Source: a virus (lineage: Duplodnaviria > Heunggongvirae > Uroviricota > Caudoviricetes). From it: a DNA stretch of 11,368 bases. Position 1 is the first letter of the stretch, and every line of letters starts with the position of its first letter. The position numbers and the translations under genes were made by a program. This document shows positions 596-11,061 of this stretch, piece by piece. The stretch covers positions 1 to 11,368 of the IMG/VR virus record IMGVR_UViG_2547132269_000002. The stretch is one strand, 5' to 3'. Below the pieces are notes generated by a model. It did not search any database and was not told the origin of the DNA. It saw only the letters and a program-made list of their open reading frames with translations.

Positions 596-622
596 GGGCC
601 TCGCTAATGCGAGGCTTTTTTA
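596..622 (+). terminator. Rho-independent terminator (stem gcctcgc / gcgaggc, loop taat, then TTTTTT)
   Basis: Perfect 7-bp inverted repeat at 598-604 and 609-615, immediately followed by a 6-T run at 616-621. Orientation fits termination of + strand transcription from the small gene at 266..490. Confidence 0.6.
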
Positions 623-656: not shown

Positions 657-1007
657 ATGCCACCACGAACCCCAAAAGCCTGCCGTTTTCGCGGTTGCCG
701 CAATACCACTACAGATACGTCAGGCTATTGCGAAAGCCACAAAAGCGAGGGCTGGAAGCAATACAAGCCAGGACAATCCCGTCATCAGCGCGGTTATGGT
801 TCGAAGTGGGACAGTATCCGCGCGGGTGTCCTGAAGCGTGACAAAGGCCTGTGTCAGTTATGTCTGCGTGCTGGTGTGGTGCGTGAGGCGAAAACCGTTG
901 ACCACATCATCCCTAAAGCGCATGGCGGCACTGATGCCGACTGTAATCTGCAGAGTCTGTGCTGGCCGTGTCATAAGGCGAAGACGGCCCGTGAACGACT
1001 TAAGTGA
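657..1007 (+). CDS. HNH homing-type endonuclease, phage packaging-associated (116 aa)
   Basis: ATG at 657 with AGAGGGG upstream. Cys pairs CRFRGC and CQLC...CWPC (zinc-finger-like). HNH core DHIIPKAHGG...NLQSLCWPCHKAKT with His83 codon at 903-905. Sits directly upstream of the small and large terminase genes, as in HK97-like cos phages. Confidence 0.9.
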   Translation: MPPRTPKACRFRGCRNTTTDTSGYCESHKSEGWKQYKPGQSRHQRGYGSKWDSIRAGVLKRDKGLCQLCLRAGVVREAKTVDHIIPKAHGGTDADCNLQSLCWPCHKAKTARERLK

Positions 1008-1033
1008 TAATAATTCTCAACTGTCTGAGGGGA

Positions 1034-1093
1034 GGGGCGGGTCAAATCTCTGTGACCTGACGTCTTCCGGACTGCCCGCCCCATCGTTTTTTT
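1034..1093 (+). other. GC-rich inverted repeat (ggggcggg ... cccgcccc) with internal palindromes, followed by TTTTTTT; candidate terminator or cos/packaging-recognition region
   Basis: Arms at 1034-1041 and 1075-1082 are exact reverse complements separated by a 33-nt loop containing the palindromes gacgtc (1059-1064) and tccgga (1066-1071). A 7-T run at 1087-1093 lies 4 nt after the stem. Located in the HNH to TerS intergenic gap. Confidence 0.35.
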
Positions 1094-1132
1094 ATACCCG
1101 CGAAAAATGAAATTTAACCAGGAGTGCCGCAT

Positions 1133-1627
1133 ATGGCTGGAACGGCGGGGCGTTCCGGGCGTCGCCCCAAGCCAACGGCGCGCAAGGCGCTGGCCGGAAA
1201 CCCCGGAAAGCGAGCCCTGAACAAAGATGAACCCGTTTTTACGCCCATCAAAGGTGTTGAGCCACCGGAGTGGTTCGCTGAAGAAGAGCTCCCTCTCGCC
1301 ACGATCATGTGGCAACTGACAACCAAAGAACTCTGCGGTCAGGGCCTGCTGTGCGTGACTGACCTCGCAGTGCTTGAGCGGTGGTGCGTAGCCTATGAGT
1401 TCTGGCGACGTGCTGTGAAAAATATTGCCAGACAGGGCAACACCATCACCGGTGCAATGGGCGGCATGGTCAAAAATCCGGAGCTGACCGCCAAAAAAGA
1501 ACAGGAGTCCGAGATGAGCAGTACGGGGGCAATGCTCGGACTCGACCCCAGCAGCCGCCAGCGTCTGATTGGCCTGGCGGGGCAGAAGAAAGCCACTAAC
1601 CCGTTTCTGAAAATTATCGAATCATGA
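1133..1627 (+). CDS. Terminase small subunit, P27 family (about 164 aa from ATG 1133)
   Basis: ATG at 1133 preceded by AGGAG at 1120-1124; the in-frame GTG at 1124 used by the ORF track has no spacing for an RBS. Basic N-terminus GRSGRRPKP, then [15 protein letters not shown] and PPEW motifs typical of P27-type small terminases. Stop TGA at 1625-1627 overlaps the ATG of the next gene. Confidence 0.85.
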
Positions 1628-3357
1628 GCCGGAAATCTTACCCCAACGTAAATGCTGCCAATCAGTATGCCCGGGATGTCGTGCGCGGAAAGATTGTGGC
1701 CTGCCAGTTTGTGATTCAGGCCTGCCAGCGCCATCTTGATGACCTGATGGCGGAAAAAAGTAAGTCGTTTCGTTACCGCTTCGACAAGGACCTGGCTGAA
1801 CGGGCCGCCAAATTTATTCAGCTGTTGCCGCACACCAAGGGTGAGTGGGCATTCAAGAGGATGCCCATCACGCTGGAGCCGTGGCTGCTCTTTGTGATCT
1901 GCTGCGCGTTTGGCTGGGTCAATAAAGGCTCCCGGCTGCGCCGCTTCCGGGAGGTGTATACCGAAATCCCCCGTAAGAACGGCAAATCGGCAATCTCTGC
2001 CGGTGTCGCCCTGTATTGTTTTGCCTGTGATAACGAGTTCGGCGCGGAAGTGTATTCCGGTGCCACGACGGAGAAACAGGCATGGGAAGTCTTTCGTCCG
2101 GCAAGACTGATGTGTAAACGCACACCCATGCTGACGGAAGCGTTCGGGATTGAGGTTAACGCCTCAAACATGAATCGTCCGGAGGATGGCGCGCGGTTTG
2201 AACCGCTGATCGGTAACCCCGGTGATGGTTCATCACCCCACTGTGCGGTGGTGGATGAATATCACGAGCACGCCACCGATGCGCTTTACACCACGATGCT
2301 TACCGGGATGGGGGCGCGACGTCAGCCACTGATGTGGGCCATTACTACTGCCGGGTACAACATTGAGGGGCCGTGCTACGACAAGCGACGGGAAGTTATC
2401 GAGATGCTCAACGGGTCGGTACCCAACGATGAACTGTTCGGGATCATCTATACCGTTGACGAAGGCGATGACTGGACCGACCCGCAGGTGCTGGAAAAAG
2501 CTAACCCGAATATTGGCGTGTCGGTTTATCGCGAATTTTTGTTAAGTCAGCAGCAGCGTGCGAAAAATAACGCCCGTCTGGCAAACGTCTTTAAAACAAA
2601 ACACCTCAATATCTGGGTGTCGGCGCGTTCGGCGTATTTCAACCTGGTGAGCTGGCAGAGCTGCGAGGATAAATCACTGACCCTTGAGCAGTTCGAGGGG
2701 CAGCTGTGCATTCTGGCCTTTGACCTGGCGCGTAAGCTGGATATGAACAGCATGGCGCGACTTTATACCCGCGAGATTGACGGTAAAACGCATTACTACA
2801 GTGTGGCCCCGCGTTTCTGGGTACCGTATGACACGGTGTACAGCGTCGAGAAAAATGAAGATCGACGGACAGCCGAACGCTTTCAGAAATGGGTGGAAAT
2901 GGGCGTTCTGACCGTTACCGATGGTGCGGAGGTGGATTATCGCTACATCCTCGAGGAGGCCAAAGCGGCGAACAAAATCAGCCCGGTCAGTGAGTCACCC
3001 ATCGACCCCTTCGGGGCGACCGGGTTGTCACATGACCTTGCTGATGAAGACCTGAACCCCATCACTATCATTCAGAACTACACCAACATGTCCGACCCGA
3101 TGAAAGAGCTGGAAGCGGCAATTGAATCGGGGCGCTTTCATCATGATGGCAATTCCATCATGACCTGGTGTATCGGCAACGTGGTCGGCAAAACCATTCC
3201 GGGTAACGATGATGTGGTGAAGCCCGTCAAAGAGCAGGCGGAAAACAAAATCGATGGTGCAGTTGCGCTGATTATGGCGGTTGGCAGAGCCATGCTGTAC
3301 GAGAAAGAAGACACGCTGTCTGACCACATTGAGTCCTATGGGATCCGCTCGCTTTAA
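1624..3357 (+). CDS. Terminase large subunit (577 aa), ATPase plus nuclease
   Basis: Walker A-like P-loop IPRKNGKS at nt 1969-1989. Walker B-like VVDEYHE at nt 2248-2268. Length and position immediately after TerS, with ATGA overlap. Intact ORF. Confidence 0.95.
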
Positions 3358-3368
3358 CTGAGGTAATT

Positions 3369-3551
3369 ATGATCATGCTGATTCTCGCGCCTTTGGTGGG
3401 CGTGCTGGGGGCGCTTTTGCTGGCGTATGGTGCCTGGCTGATTTATCCCCCGGCGGGGTTTGTTGTTGCTGGGGCGTTGTGCCTGTTCTGGTCGTGGCTG
3501 GTGGCGCGATATCTCGACCGTACACAGTCGTCTGTCGGCGGAGGTAAATAG
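3369..3551 (+). CDS. Small hydrophobic protein (60 aa) with two predicted transmembrane helices, function unknown
   Basis: ATG at 3369 with GAGG 7 nt upstream. Two hydrophobic stretches ([26 protein letters not shown] and [16 protein letters not shown]) separated by PPAG. TAG stop at 3549-3551 overlaps the GTG start of the next ORF. Confidence 0.6.
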
Positions 3552-4909
3552 TGTTCTTTTCGGGATTATTTCAACGAAAAAGTGACGCACCGGTGACCAC
3601 GCCAGCAGAGCTGGCGGATGCTATCGGGTTGTCCTACGACACCTATACCGGAAAGCAGATCAGCAGCCAGCGGGCCATGCGACTGACGGCGGTTTTTTCC
3701 TGTGTCAGGGTGCTGGCGGAGTCGGTCGGGATGTTGCCCTGCAACCTGTATCACCTGAACGGCAGCCTGAAGCAGAGAGCCACTGGCGAACGTCTGCATA
3801 AGCTGATCTCCACGCATCCCAATGGCTATATGACGCCGCAGGAGTTCTGGGAGCTGGTGGTCACCTGTCTGTGCCTGCGGGGAAACTTTTACGCCTACAT
3901 TGAGCTGAAACGTCCGGCAGGTGGTGCGCAAAATAAACTGGCCACCGAGCATAAAGAAGCGTTTGTGGGCTTCCTGCGTAAAGGCCGTGAAGATGGTCTG
4001 CGCGATCTGGAGCGCAAGGCATTACAGGTGGGCACCGATGAAGACGGTGGCTATGCCGTGCCGGAAGCGCTGGATCGCAACATTCTGACCTTGCTGAAAG
4101 ATGAAGTGGTGATGCGCCAGGAAGCCGCGGTGATCACCGTTGGCGGTTCCGACTACAAAAAACTGGTGAATCTGGGCGGCACGGCTTCCGGATGGGGTGG
4201 CGAGACTGACGCGCGCTCCCAGACTGCCACCTCCAGACTGGGGCTGATTGAACCTTTCATGGGGGAAATCTACGGTAACCCGCAGGCCACCCAGAAAATG
4301 CTGGATGATGCCTTTTTCAACGTGGAGGCCTGGATCAACAGCGAGCTGGCAACCGAATTTGCCGAACAGGAAGAAATTGCCTTTACCACCGGCGATGGTA
4401 CCAAGAAGCCGAAAGGGTTCCTGGCGTATGAATCCACTGATGAAACCGATAAGGTCCGGGCGTTCGGCAAACTTCAGCATATTGTATCCGGCGACGCGAC
4501 TGCGGTGACCGCAGACGCCATTATCAAACTGATTTACACGCTGCGAAAGGCACACCGCACCGGCGCGAAGTTCATGATGAACAACAACAGCCTGTTTGCC
4601 ATCCGTTTGCTGAAAGACAGCGAGGGTAACTATCTGTGGCGTCCGGGGCTGGAACTGGGGCAGCCGTCCTCTCTGGCGGGTTACGGTATCGCTGAAAACG
4701 AACAGATGCCGGATATCGCCGCTGATGCGAAAGCCATTGCATTTGGTAACTTCAAACGGGGTTACACCATCGTTGACCGTATCGGCACCCGCATTCTGCG
4801 TGACCCGTACACCAATAAACCGTTTGTCGGTTTTTATACAACCAAGCGCACCGGCGGGATGCTGGTCGATTCGCAGGCCATCAAACTGCTGAAGATTGCT
4901 GCGGCGTAA
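3551..4909 (+). CDS. Chimeric ORF: portal protein N-terminal fragment (~125 aa) fused in frame to an HK97-fold major capsid protein (~325 aa); probable deletion product
   Basis: GTG start at 3551 with GGAGG at 3540-3544. Residues ~40-120 carry the portal N-terminal signature (AMRLTAVFSCVRVLAESVGMLP ... HPNGYMTPQEFWEL ... LRGNFYAYIE). From about nt 3910-3950 the sequence switches to capsid-type motifs (EAFVGFLRKG, GGYAVPE, TGDGTKKPKGFL, LRDPYTNKPFVGFYTTKRTGG, AIKLLKIAAA). No prohead protease or scaffold gene between them. Confidence 0.8.
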   Translation: MFFSGLFQRKSDAPVTTPAELADAIGLSYDTYTGKQISSQRAMRLTAVFSCVRVLAESVGMLPCNLYHLNGSLKQRATGERLHKLISTHPNGYMTPQEFWELVVTCLCLRGNFYAYIELKRPAGGAQNKLATEHKEAFVGFLRKGREDGLRDLERKALQVGTDEDGGYAVPEALDRNILTLLKDEVVMRQEAAVITVGGSDYKKLVNLGGTASGWGGETDARSQTATSRLGLIEPFMGEIYGNPQATQKMLDDAFFNVEAWINSELATEFAEQEEIAFTTGDGTKKPKGFLAYESTDETDKVRAFGKLQHIVSGDATAVTADAIIKLIYTLRKAHRTGAKFMMNNNSLFAIRLLKDSEGNYLWRPGLELGQPSSLAGYGIAENEQMPDIAADAKAIAFGNFKRGYTIVDRIGTRILRDPYTNKPFVGFYTTKRTGGMLVDSQAIKLLKIAAA

Positions 4910-9198: not shown

Positions 9199-9623
9199 TG
9201 GAAGTGTGGCTGACGGTGAACGGTAAATGCACCTGCGCCAGCGCACCGCTGGATCCGCTGACCCGCGCCGTGGTGATTTCTCTGTTTACCTGGCGGCGGG
9301 CGGAGCCTGATGACAATGCCGACGTCCCGATGGGATGGTGGGGGGATACCTGGCCTGCGGTACAGAATGACCGTTACGGTTCCCGACTGTGGCTGCTTCA
9401 ACGCAGCAAACTGACCAATCAACTGGTGCAGACGGTAAGGGGGTATATCCGCGAATGCCTGCAATGGATGATTGATGACGGCGTGGTGTCCCGTATTGAT
9501 CTGGATATCCGCCGCACCGGGATTAATGAACTGGGTAACAGTATCACTCTCTGGCGTCGTGACGGACCGGTAATGATTTCTTTTGATGATCTGTGGAGTG
9601 CGATAACGCATGGCGGACAGTGA
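9195..9623 (+). CDS. Mu gp46-like baseplate protein (142 aa)
   Basis: ATGA overlap with the gp45-like gene. Size and position between the spike and J-like genes. Confidence 0.75.
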
Positions 9624-11061
9624 ATTTCAGCGCCCGACGCTGGCAGAAAATATCAGTATGCTCCGTAACGATTTATTCGCCAGGCTGGACGTCAGCGACA
9701 CGCTCCGGCGCATGGATGAAGACGTGCGGGCAAAGGTGTATGCGGCGGCGCTGCATACGGTTTACGGGTACATCGATTATCTGGCAATGAACATGCTGCC
9801 TGACCTGTGCGATGAGTCCTGGCTGGCGCGACATGCTGCGATGAAACGGTGTCCGCGCAAGGGGGCCACGGCTGCCAGCGGGTATATGCGCTGGGAAGGT
9901 GTCAGCGATGGCCTGAAGGTGACCGCCGGGAGTGTTATTCAGCGCGATGACCTGGTTCAGTACACGGCAACTGCCGATGCAACCAGCTCCGGTGGTGTCC
10001 TGCGCGTGCCGATCGCCTGCTCAAGTGCAGGCGCGGTCGGTAACGCTGACGACGGTACGTCATTAATCCTGGTCACGCCGGTTAATGGTCTGCCGTCTTC
10101 CGGCGTGGCAGATACCCTGACAGGTGGATTTGATACTGAAGAGCTGGAAACGTGGCGCGCCCGCGTCATTGAGCGGTATTACTGGACGCCTCAGGGCGGA
10201 GCTGACGGGGACTATGTCGTCTGGGCTAAAGAAGTGCCCGGCATTACCCGCGCATGGACATACCGTCACTGGATGGGAACGGGAACTGTCGGTGTGATGA
10301 TTGCCAGCAGTGACCTGATTAATCCCATTCCGGAAGAATCAACGGAAACGGCAGCAAGACAACATATCGGGCCACTGGCCCCGGTGGCAGGCTCTGATTT
10401 GTATGTGTTCAGGCCGGTGGCGCATAAAGTGGATTTTCATATCCGCGTGACGCCGGACACACCGGAAATACGGGCTGCCATTACCGCGGAGTTGCGTTCG
10501 TTCCTGCTGCGTGATGGTTATCCGCAGGGAGAACTGAAGGTATCGCGTATCAGTGAGGCGATTTCCGGTGCGGCACCGTCATTAACCCGTGTTCATCAGC
10601 GTGCGGATGCCCTGATGCGGGAGCTGGATCCGCGCACCACCACTGAACTGATAAACCGCTGGGAGCGTCTGTGCGGTCTGCCGGATGAATGTATTCCGGC
10701 GGGAACGCAGACCCTTCGCCAGCGTCAGCAACGGCTGGATGCGAAGGTTAACCTGGCGGGCGGCATCAACGAGGATTTTTATCTTGCACAGCTTGCTGCC
10801 CTGGGCAGACCAGATGCCACCATCACGCGATACGACAAAAGCACGTTCACCTGCTCATCGGCCTGTACTGACGCGGTGAATGCGCCAGAATGGCGGTATT
10901 GCTGGCAGGTCAACATGCCAACCACCACCAACACCACCTGGATGACATGTGGCGATCCCTGTGATTCCGCACTGCGTATCTGGGGTGACACCGTTGTCGA
11001 GTGTGTGCTTAACAAACTCTGCCCGTCGCATACCTACGTAATTTTTAAATATCCGGAGTAA
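9610..11061 (+). CDS. Baseplate J-like protein (Mu gp47-like, ~320 aa) continuous with a gp48 / P2 gpI-like tail protein domain (~160 aa) in one 483-aa ORF
   Basis: ATG at 9610; single uninterrupted frame to TAA at 11059-11061. The N-terminal ~320 aa look J-like. From about nt 10560-10620 ([24 protein letters not shown] ...) the sequence resembles the N-terminal region of gp48/DUF2313-type proteins, which are normally a separate downstream gene. Confidence 0.75.

What the first reader, a model, noticed from the sequence alone, without database searches (positions are those of the whole stretch)
1008..1132. Structured HNH-TerS intergenic region: candidate cos / terminase recognition site
Between the HNH and TerS genes lies an 8-bp GC-only inverted repeat (1034-1041 / 1075-1082) enclosing two 6-bp palindromes (gacgtc, tccgga), then a T7 run. 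In HK97-like phages the HNH protein works with terminase at cos, and cos lies next to the small terminase gene, so this is the expected location of the packaging site. The feature could also simply be a terminator. Together with the intact terminase genes, a functional cos would mean this decayed element could still package or be packaged.
Basis: inference. Interest (0 to 1): 0.4.

Follow-up and report, generated by a model that had tools for sequence, protein, structure and literature searches.

The report
Known phage cos packaging site
The HNH-to-small-terminase gap holds the cos (genome-end) site already mapped in the closely related Shigella phages SfI and SfV, sitting here in a prophage that has lost its capsid and tail genes; the "hairpin" that drew attention is a by-product of two conserved cos elements, not a structure or a terminator.

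Summary

The right arm (1075-1082) lies inside TGCCCGCCCC (1073-1082), the 10-nt cohesive end mapped on SfI virion DNA. The SfI record breaks at 1082/1083. phiP27 annotates its cos-site on the same columns. Positions -52 to +60 are 100% identical to SfV.

Comparing more than 200 loci, plus HK97 and Bacillus phages Gamma and phi105, shows three parts:
- Block A (1029-1052), with its core usually 31 nt before the overhang.
- AC|YGCC at the left nick.
- Block C (1095-1117), which matches the small-terminase type one-to-one and lies where HK97 small terminase binds.

The repeat arms do not covary, so neither a hairpin nor a terminator is supported.

The HNH protein is a full-length homologue of the nickases N.phiGamma and N.phi105, which cut at AC^CG. 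That is the left overhang boundary. I infer that HNH cuts the bottom strand and the large terminase the top.

The element lacks portal, protease, capsid, sheath, tube and tape measure. It cannot package itself; at most a helper phage could package it.

The site is already known, so interest is low. The cross-phylum architecture is a modest addition.

The parts
657..1007 (+). HNH endonuclease gene (116 aa) with an N-terminal Cys motif (C9xxxxC14 ... C25xxH28). Proposed bottom-strand cos nickase.
   Evidence: Pfam HNH PF01844, E 5e-15. Full-length homologue of N.phiGamma (35% identity, E 1e-16) and of the phi105 HNH (41.6%). 43% identical to HK97 gp74 over 42 aa.
1029..1052 (+). Block A, GGGGAGGGGCGGGTCAAATCTCTG: conserved upstream cos element, a G-run followed by a TCAAATCYCT core. 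Function inferred: docking or termination element, in the position of lambda cosQ.
   Evidence: Invariant GG (1036-37) and AAATC (1044-48) in 26 diverse sequences including HK97. The core starts 31 nt before the overhang in nearly all loci, in phage Gamma, and at 30 nt in phi105. Conservation profile.
1053..1068 (.). Variable spacer of fixed length. It holds GACGTC (1059-1064) and most of TCCGGA (1066-1071).
   Evidence: Lowest conservation in the region. The sequence differs freely among relatives while the length is kept.
1069..1072 (+). GGAC, immediately 5' of the cohesive end. The inferred bottom-strand nick lies between 1072 and 1073 (top strand AC|TG, bottom strand CA^GT).
   Evidence: AC is invariant. 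N.phiGamma and N.phi105 nick CG^GT (AC^CG) and YG^GTY (RAC^CR), and AC^TG is the strongest star site (PMC3592412). Gamma's annotated cos starts right after GTAC.
1073..1082 (+). Cohesive-end sequence TGCCCGCCCC, a 10-nt overhang inferred to be 3'-protruding. The top-strand nick lies between 1082 and 1083.
   Evidence: Identical to the SfI gap found by run-off sequencing of virion DNA. The SfI record breaks here. phiP27's cos-site feature is on the same columns. HK97 has 10-nt 3' overhangs (PMC9410871).
1087..1093 (+). T7 run, part of a semi-conserved A/T segment (consensus ATTTTTA at about +5 to +12) between the cut and the small-terminase site. Not a terminator tail.
   Evidence: Moderate conservation at 1088-1094 across Block C types C1 and C2, independent of any upstream stem. 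The run starts 4 nt after the 'stem', and the terminator scan does not flag it.
1095..1117 (+). Block C, TACCCGCGAAAAATGAAATTTAA: predicted small-terminase recognition site, in the position of lambda cosB.
   Evidence: HK97 small terminase needs +15 to +29 (CTAACCCGATTTTTT) (PMC11331095). Window +15 to +29 is CCCGCGAAAAATGAA. Block C type matches the small-terminase N-terminal type in 125 of 126 non-redundant loci, while the overhang class mixes across types.
1133..1627 (+). Small terminase (164 aa, P27 family). RBS AGGAG at 1121-1125. N-terminal 35 residues are Arg/Lys-rich and predicted disordered.
1624..3357 (+). Large terminase (577 aa), HK97 type, intact. Proposed top-strand cos nuclease and packaging ATPase.
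   Evidence: Pfam TerL_ATPase and TerL_nuclease. Only PDB sequence hit is HK97 large terminase 6z6d, E 1e-23. Same length as the SfII gene.

Best explanation
Window 1029-1117 is the cos site of an SfV/SfI-type (HK97-like, HNH-dependent) temperate phage. It is preserved intact in a prophage that has lost its head and tail genes.

Shown:
- The 10-nt cohesive end is TGCCCGCCCC (1073-1082).
- The site is sequence-identical to that of a plaque-forming phage.

Inferred:
- Terminase makes staggered nicks, on the bottom strand between 1072/1073 and on the top strand between 1082/1083. This leaves 10-nt 3' overhangs. Packaging then proceeds rightwards into the terminase genes.
- The small terminase (P27 family) recognises Block C (about +13 to +35; ACCCGCG plus an A-tract), as HK97 small terminase does at +15 to +29.
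- The HNH protein, a homologue of the AC^CG nickases N.phiGamma and N.phi105, nicks the bottom strand at the invariant AC|YG. The large-terminase nuclease cuts the top strand 10 nt downstream.
- Block A, about three helical turns upstream of the nick, is read by the conserved HNH/large-terminase part of the machine. It may act at termination, like lambda cosQ.
- The 8-bp inverted repeat arises only because the G-run of Block A happens to complement the C-rich 3' half of this lineage's overhang.
For: Mapped ends in relatives:
- The SfI virion-DNA gap TGCCCGCCCC equals window 1073-1082, and the SfI record is linearised at 1082/1083.
- phiP27 annotates a cos-site on the same columns.
- EPP-1's record ends there.
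- The window is 100% identical to SfV from -52 to +60.

Shared architecture:
- HK97 has the same layout and spacing...GGGGGGGGATCAAATCTTC-N-GAC|CGCCGCCAAA|GTTTG....
- Block A, the spacing (31 nt in nearly all loci) and AC|YGCC recur in 60+ HNH-anchored loci from Enterobacterales, with a similar layout read by eye in Halomonas and Acidobacteriota MAG loci.
- About 100 of 114 unique pattern hits in IMG/VR show the full layout.
- Bacillus phage Gamma shows it too, with an annotated cos.

Proteins:
- The large terminase is HK97 type.
- The HNH is a homologue of N.phiGamma and N.phi105, whose nick sites are AC^CG and RAC^CR.
- Current literature holds that HNH and the large terminase each make one nick (PMC12967558; PMC11331095).

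Block C:
- It lies where HK97 small terminase binds.
- It co-varies one-to-one with small-terminase type.
- The overhang class recombines freely against it.
Against: - No ends were mapped for this element itself.
- The 3' polarity is deduced from the SfI 'gap' and from HK97. The SfI paper does not state it.
- The SfV, SfIV, SfII and ST64B GenBank records are linearised at other positions (window 1066, 1066, 1008 and 1118). I could not read the 2002 SfV paper to reconcile this.
- HK97 gp74, the sk1 HNH and the S. aureus phage HNHs look non-specific in vitro. The HNH strand assignment rests on the Gram-positive nickases.
- phi105's annotated overhang is 7 nt, one base off the AC|CG prediction.
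- The regexes used to collect loci partly force the AAATC and ACYGCC columns.
Confidence: 0.87

Rival explanations
1. An intrinsic transcription terminator at the end of the HNH gene: the GC stem 1034-1041/1075-1082 followed by the T7 run.
For: An 8-bp all-GC stem with seven T's nearby. The MFE structure does use the stem.
Against: - The loop is 33 nt and the T-run starts 4 nt after the stem. The terminator scan does not report it.
- Folding energy is ordinary (z = -0.78).
- Pairing is lost without compensation in relatives that keep both blocks, falling to 2-5 of 8, including HK97.
- SfII's annotators predicted terminators elsewhere, not here.
- The late transcript must read through into the terminase and head genes.
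- A textbook terminator is present for comparison at 598-621: GCCTCGC-TAAT-GCGAGGC followed by T6.
Confidence: 0.04
2. The inverted repeat is itself functional. It would be a hairpin or cruciform, or a two-fold symmetric site read twice by the same protein, needed for cos cleavage.
For: The repeat is perfect (8/8) across the SfV/phiP27 group, and a 7-bp version (GGGGCGG / CCGCCCC) recurs in Bacillus phage Gamma. The G-run and the C-rich overhang retain partial complementarity in many lineages.
Against: - There is no covariation.
- The left arm stays GGGGCGGG in Providencia, Photorhabdus and Xenorhabdus loci whose overhangs changed, leaving 2-4 of 8 complementary.
- HK97, whose cos is experimentally functional, has 3 of 8.
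- DNA folding is ordinary (z = -1.13).
- The symmetry centre (about 1058) is not at the cut.
Confidence: 0.07
3. The site is a sequence-intact fossil. It is the cos of a dead prophage, never cut in its present host and retained only because too little time has passed for it to decay.
For: The element lacks portal, protease, capsid, sheath, tube and tape measure. The same deleted variant is found in at least two assemblies and four read sets, so it is vertically inherited cargo. Identity to SfV may simply reflect recent descent.
Against: The HNH, small-terminase and large-terminase reading frames are all full length and cos is unmutated. That is compatible with recent decay, but also with continued use when an SfV-type helper phage infects. 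The present data cannot decide between these.
Confidence: 0.35

Closest known systems
cos sites of Shigella serotype-converting phages SfI and SfV (also SfII, SfIV)
   Same: Identical 10-nt cohesive end TGCCCGCCCC. 100% identity to SfV over -52 to +60. Same HNH - cos - small terminase - large terminase order. 96-97% DNA identity across the module.
   Different: This copy sits in a prophage with three deletions totalling about 6.9 kb relative to SfII. No virions are expected from it.
phiP27 (Stx2e phage) cos-site
   Same: The annotated 10-nt cos-site CGCCCGCCCC lies on the same alignment columns. Block A is identical. The small terminase is of the same P27 family.
   Different: The first overhang base is C, not T. 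Block C is the C1b variant (CCGCGAAATTAA) and goes with a T1b small-terminase N-terminus.
HK97 cos with gp74 (HNH), gp1 (small terminase) and gp2 (large terminase)
   Same: 10-nt 3' overhang. Same Block A core and the same 31-nt spacing to AC|CGCC. Small-terminase site downstream with ACCCG plus an A/T tract. Large terminase homologous (E 1e-23). HNH required for cos cleavage.
   Different: - The overhang's 3' half differs (CGCCGCCAAA), so there is no inverted repeat.
- The small terminase is not detectably related by sequence.
- The ACCCG motif is offset by 4 nt.
- gp74 lacks the N-terminal zinc ribbon (PMC3592412).
- About 290 nt separate the HNH stop from Block A, against 21 nt here.
Bacillus phage Gamma cos and the N.phiGamma nickase (also phi105 and N.phi105)
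   Same: The HNH is a full-length homologue (35-42% identity). Gamma has GGGTAGGGGCGGGTCGAAA, then 31 nt to GTAC|CGCCGCCCC with an annotated cos. The enzyme's nick site AC^CG coincides with the overhang boundary.
   Different: Gram-positive hosts. The overhangs are 9 nt (Gamma) and 7 nt (phi105). The window has AC|TG rather than AC|CG. phi105 has a C-run instead of the G-run. The downstream small-terminase block is unrelated.
Lambda cos (cosQ - cosN - cosB)
   Same: Tripartite logic: an upstream element met first by the translocating motor, a nicking site, and a downstream small-terminase binding region next to the small-terminase gene. The lambda anatomy is from established knowledge; the role of IHF is noted in PMC13595911.
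   Different: Lambda has 12-nt 5' overhangs and no HNH partner. gpNu1 and gpA belong to different families. Nothing in the sequence is homologous. This is an analogy of organisation only.

Membership tests
HK97/P27-type HNH-associated cos site | Lies between an HNH endonuclease gene and the small/large terminase genes | tested here: met
   HNH 657-1007, small terminase 1133-1627, large terminase 1624-3357 (Pfam).
HK97/P27-type HNH-associated cos site | Contains a cohesive-end sequence homologous to one mapped on virion DNA | tested here: met
   TGCCCGCCCC (1073-1082) equals the SfI run-off gap. The SfI record breaks at 1082/1083. The phiP27 cos-site lies on the same columns.
HK97/P27-type HNH-associated cos site | Conserved layout: G-run plus AAATC core, about 31 nt, then AC|YGCC | tested here: met
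   (invariant GG, AAATC, AC, G, CC). HK97. Gamma. One copy in the window with 0 mismatches.
HK97/P27-type HNH-associated cos site | Partner large terminase of HK97 type | tested here: met
   phmmer against PDB gives only 6z6d (HK97 large terminase), E 1.2e-23.
HK97/P27-type HNH-associated cos site | Small-terminase recognition site about 15-30 bp downstream of the cut | tested here: inconclusive
HK97/P27-type HNH-associated cos site | Actually cleaved to 10-nt 3' overhangs in this element | not testable with these tools
   Needs virion or particle DNA end mapping. The polarity is inferred from the SfI gap and HK97.
Rho-independent terminator | GC-rich stem with a short loop (about 3-8 nt), followed immediately by a U-tract | tested here: not met
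   The loop is 33 nt and there is a 4-nt gap before T7. The scan does not report it.
Rho-independent terminator | Stem maintained in relatives, and stability above background | tested here: not met
   No covariation. Complementarity falls to 2-5 of 8. z = -0.78.
Lambda-type cos | 12-nt 5' overhang, gpNu1/gpA-type terminase, no HNH partner | tested here: not met
   P27-family small terminase, HK97-type large terminase and an HNH gene are present. The overhang is 10 nt.
pac (headful) site | Close relatives have permuted, terminally redundant genomes | tested here: not met
   The SfI and SfIV papers report defined ends and cos packaging, in contrast to Sf6 and SfX.
Known structured RNA (Rfam) | Match to a curated covariance model | tested here: not met
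   Nothing over 1008-1132. The only hit in 500-1700 is a sub-threshold Leu_leader match at 500-622.

The most novel reading that the evidence does not exclude
The most novel reading not excluded is that the site exemplifies a single, deeply conserved cos grammar shared by HNH-dependent HK97/P27-type packaging machines from Enterobacterales to Bacillus.
- A G-run/AAATC block sits about three helical turns upstream of an invariant AC|YG.
- That AC|YG is the HNH protein's own nick site, so HNH makes the bottom-strand cut and the large terminase the top-strand cut.
- A swappable downstream block is matched to the small-terminase type.

If so, this assigns strands to the two nucleases, which a 2026 paper still calls unclear. 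It would also give a sequence rule for locating cos in thousands of prophages. I could not find this stated in the literature available here, but the key papers (Kala 2014, Allison 2002, Juhala 2000) were not readable.
Probability: 0.35. Interest if true: 0.5.

Novelty: already known. Interest (0 to 1): 0.22.

Why it matters
For this window, the result turns a guess into an annotation. The cos of an SfV-type prophage is at 1073-1082, with flanking recognition blocks at 1029-1052 and 1095-1117.

The result also corrects the idea that the element could package itself. It keeps the packaging signal and all three packaging enzymes, but it has no head or tail.

A resident, intact cos with the same specificity as the circulating Shigella/E. 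coli serotype-converting phages is a possible handle for helper-mediated mobilisation. It could also be a recombination partner that donates terminase and cos modules.

More generally, the comparison yields a compact motif, GG-N5-AAATCYCT-N19-AC|YGCC. In the first 120 IMG/VR matches (114 unique sequences), about 100 showed the full cos layout, with about a dozen apparent chance hits. It also gives a testable assignment of which nuclease cuts which strand.

Tried and rejected
- **Rfam scan of 500-1700:** nothing in the region.
- **RNA and DNA folding:** no better than shuffles.
- **Covariation test of the repeat:** negative.
- **Literal-sequence literature search** (TGCCCGCCCC, GGTCAAATC and others): returned only unrelated primer hits.
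- **Papers not held:** Allison 2002 on SfV and Kala 2014. I therefore could not reconcile why the SfV and SfIV records start 7 nt upstream of the SfI-mapped overhang, or check whether the architecture has been described.
- **Papers that added nothing on cos anatomy:** the HK97 termination paper and a Serratia phage paper.
- **Sequence comparison of the small terminase** with HK97 gp1, Gamma small terminase and PDB: no similarity.
considered because TCAAATCTCTG resembles WATCAANNNNTTR (consensus recalled from memory) at about 6 of 9 positions. Set aside because the block is also present in Bacillus phage Gamma; that Bacillus lacks IHF is from general knowledge, not a tool result.
- **G-quadruplex in Block A:** considered and dropped, as there are only three G-tracts.
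- **Search of complete E. coli genomes:** found intact relatives (98% identity, in 4 pieces), but none of the top-ranked matches has this deleted variant.

Full report
**What is in the sequence.** The window is an entire 11,368-bp short-read contig (Logan ERR200287_311). The same contig occurs in four read sets, and the same variant is present in assembly GCA_027566395.1. It carries the packaging and morphogenesis module of an SfV/SfI/SfII/SfIV-type temperate phage:
- an HNH endonuclease (657-1007);
- a P27-family small terminase (1133-1627);
- an HK97-type large terminase (1624-3357);
- head-tail connectors and Mu-like baseplate genes.

**Are they more than chance?** They are not, taken on their own.
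- A perfect 8-bp inverted repeat with a loop of 40 nt or less appears in 4.9% of dinucleotide shuffles of the 125-nt gap.
- The window as a whole has 9 such repeats against 7.2 +/- 3.2 expected.
- The palindrome count is reached by 27% of shuffles.
- Folding 1020-1100 as RNA or DNA gives energies within one standard deviation of shuffles (z = -0.78 and -1.13).
- Rfam finds nothing.

**What it is.** Similarity searches settle the identity.
- The region is 93-99% identical to Shigella phages SfI, SfII, SfIV and SfV and to several E. coli and Salmonella phages. Several of their linear records begin or end inside it.
- The SfI paper reports run-off sequencing of virion DNA from primers in the HNH and small-terminase genes. 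Compared with the prophage, 10 nt were missing: 5'-TGCCCGCCCC-3'. The authors concluded that packaging is by cos (PMC3636060).
- That string is window 1073-1082. The SfI record ends ...GGACTGCCCGCCCC and restarts at the base homologous to 1083.
- phiP27 carries a 10-nt 'cos-site' feature, CGCCCGCCCC, on the same alignment columns.
- The linear record of Edwardsiella phage EPP-1 ends on the same column, with TGCCCGCCTC.
- From -52 to +60 around the cut, the window is 100% identical to the joined ends of SfV.
- The SfIV paper states that SfI, SfII, SfIV and SfV share an identical cos (PMC3851460).

The right arm of the 'hairpin' is therefore the cohesive end itself. A gap seen from both primers implies recessed 5' ends, that is, 3' overhangs. 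This is my inference. It agrees with the 10-nt 3' overhangs of HK97 (PMC9410871; PMC11331095).

**Anatomy from comparison.** I collected the sequence downstream of HNH homologues from 80 viral and 50 genomic loci, with HNH identity ranging from 99% down to 33%. I added the HK97 end junction. Three blocks stand out.
1. *Block A* (window 1029-1052, GGGGAGGGGCGGGTCAAATCTCTG). GG and AAATC are invariant across 26 diverse sequences including HK97. Its position is fixed relative to the cut, not relative to the HNH stop codon, which lies anywhere from about 20 nt to about 290 nt away.
2. *A spacer of fixed length but free sequence.* It holds both palindromes and ends in GGAC|YGCC. AC, G and CC are invariant. 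The 3' half of the overhang varies among lineages.
3. *An A/T segment (the T-run) followed by Block C* (1095-1117).

The Block A core starts 31 nt before the first overhang base in almost every locus; five show 30 or 32. It does so in HK97 as well. That is about three helical turns.

About 100 of the 114 unique hits also show the unspecified G-run and a recognisable Block C.

The same layout occurs in Bacillus phage Gamma, GGGTAGGGGCGGGTCGAAA...GTAC|CGCCGCCCC, with 31-nt spacing and an annotated cos. A looser form occurs in phi105.

**The inverted repeat is incidental.** Complementarity between the two arms is 8/8 in the SfV/phiP27 group. It falls to 2-5 of 8 in Providencia, Photorhabdus, Xenorhabdus and Haemophilus loci and in HK97. 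These lineages keep the left arm but have changed the overhang.

A formal pair count finds no covariation: 76.0% of cells pair against 76.7% in shuffles, and 357 of 500 shuffles do as well. The repeat exists because a G-run faces a C-rich overhang in this lineage.

The terminator reading fails for the same reason. In addition, the loop is 33 nt, there is a 4-nt gap before the T-run, the scan does not flag it, and no terminator is annotated there in SfII. The T-run belongs to a semi-conserved ATTTTTA segment that is present regardless of any stem. A canonical terminator does exist nearby for contrast, at 598-621.

**How it most likely works.** The following steps are inferred, not shown.

*Small-terminase recognition.* HK97 small terminase binds a minimal 15-bp site at +15 to +29 (CTAACCCGATTTTTT). 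It reads a G and an A-tract through arms formed by its N- and C-termini (PMC11331095).
- The window has CCCGCGAAAAATGAA at +15 to +29, inside Block C.
- Across non-redundant loci, Block C type and small-terminase N-terminal type agree 72/72, 10/10, 16/17 and 27/27.
- The overhang class, by contrast, is found with several Block C types.
- Xenorhabdus loci L118 and L119 combine the upstream half of one lineage with the Block C and small terminase of another.
- Recombination therefore seems to occur at or near the cut, while Block C stays with its small terminase.

*The nucleases.* The window HNH aligns over its full length, including the N-terminal Cys motif, with the phage Gamma endonuclease N.phiGamma (E 1e-16). 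It also aligns with the phi105 HNH (41.6% identity).
- Both enzymes are characterised site-specific nickases. They cut CG^GT (AC^CG) and YG^GTY (RAC^CR), and AC^TG is the strongest star site (PMC3592412).
- The invariant AC|YG at the left edge of the overhang is exactly such a site in Gamma, HK97 and phiP27 (AC|CG). It is the star variant in the window (AC|TG).
- The nicked strand would be the bottom strand, as required for a 3' overhang.
- I therefore propose that HNH makes the bottom-strand nick at 1072/1073 and the HK97-type large terminase makes the top-strand nick at 1082/1083.
- Recent papers state that such a division of labour has been suggested but remains unclear.

*Block A.* It is conserved wherever the HNH/large-terminase pair is conserved, whatever the small-terminase type. 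It lies in helical phase with the nick. It is most simply a docking site for that pair. It occupies the position of lambda cosQ, which a translocating motor meets just before the cut. This last point is the weakest step.

**State of the element.** Relative to SfII, the window has three deletions:
- SfII 2893-4623. This fuses the first ~120 residues of portal to the C-terminal capsid domain in ORF 3551-4909 and removes the protease.
- SfII 7899-12904. This removes sheath, tube, tape measure and part of the DNA-circulation protein.
- About 166 bp at window 10557-10572.

The HNH, small-terminase and large-terminase genes are full length. The element cannot build heads or tails, so it cannot package itself.

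Its cos could be cut by its own or a helper's terminase. Productive packaging would also need helper capsids and a second cos at a suitable distance. That second requirement comes from established knowledge of cos phages and was not tested here. Whether the site is ever used, or is simply a young fossil, cannot be decided from sequence.

**Comparison with what is known, and verdict.**
- This is the cos site already mapped for SfI and SfV and annotated for phiP27, so as a finding it is already known.
- It meets every testable defining feature of an HK97/P27-type HNH-associated cos.
- It fails the tests for a terminator, a lambda-type cos, a pac site and any Rfam family.
- The added value is the cross-phylum three-block architecture and the coincidence of the HNH nick specificity with the overhang boundary. 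I could not find either stated in the papers I could read, but I also could not read the most relevant older ones.
- Overall interest is low (0.22). The more novel reading is given separately with probability 0.35.

Noticed in passing
window 3551-4909 (junction 3899/3900): In-frame portal-capsid fusion ORF of 452 aa: the portal N-terminus (residues 47-120) joined to a complete HK97-fold capsid domain (166-449). It results from a 1,731-bp deletion relative to SfII that also removes the prohead protease.
   Followed up: yes
window 7174/7175 and 10557-10572: A 5,006-bp deletion removes tail sheath, tube, tape measure and part of the DNA-circulation gene. A further deletion of about 166 bp fuses baseplate-J and gp48-like reading frames into ORF 9610-11061 (483 aa).
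   Followed up: partly
window 598-621: A textbook intrinsic terminator (GCCTCGC-TAAT-GCGAGGC followed by T6) lies about 35 nt upstream of the HNH start codon. It follows a 74-aa ORF (266-490) with no Pfam match. It probably explains the sub-threshold Rfam Leu_leader hit at 500-622.
   Followed up: partly
SfV U82619.2, SfIV KC814930, SfII KC736978, ST64B AY055382 (window equivalents 1066, 1066, 1008, 1118): The GenBank records of close relatives are linearised at four different positions. None is the SfI-mapped cut at 1082/1083. SfV and SfIV start 7 nt upstream of the overhang.
   Followed up: partly
L118 and L119 (Xenorhabdus) compared with L116 and L117: The upstream half of cos (Block A, spacer, overhang CGCCGCCTWA) from one lineage is joined to the Block C and small terminase of another. 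This suggests that recombination joints cluster at the cut site.
   Followed up: partly
L263/L264 (Bacillus phage Gamma) and L265 (phi105): Gram-positive phages share the Block A - ~31 nt - AC|CG layout. phi105 has a C-run where the others have a G-run, and its annotated 7-nt overhang starts one base after the predicted AC|CG nick.
   Followed up: partly
L122 (contig labelled Streptococcus sp. MAG) and L121 (labelled Bacillota MAG): Both carry cos/HNH modules almost identical to a Haemophilus locus (L125) and to the E. coli-type loci respectively. This is most likely mis-binned or contaminating contigs in those MAGs.
   Followed up: no
window 3387-3414: A strong terminator-like hairpin (12 pairs) lies between the large-terminase and portal genes. 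It matches a terminator annotated in SfII, inside a small 60-aa ORF (3369-3551) annotated there as a membrane protein.
   Followed up: no
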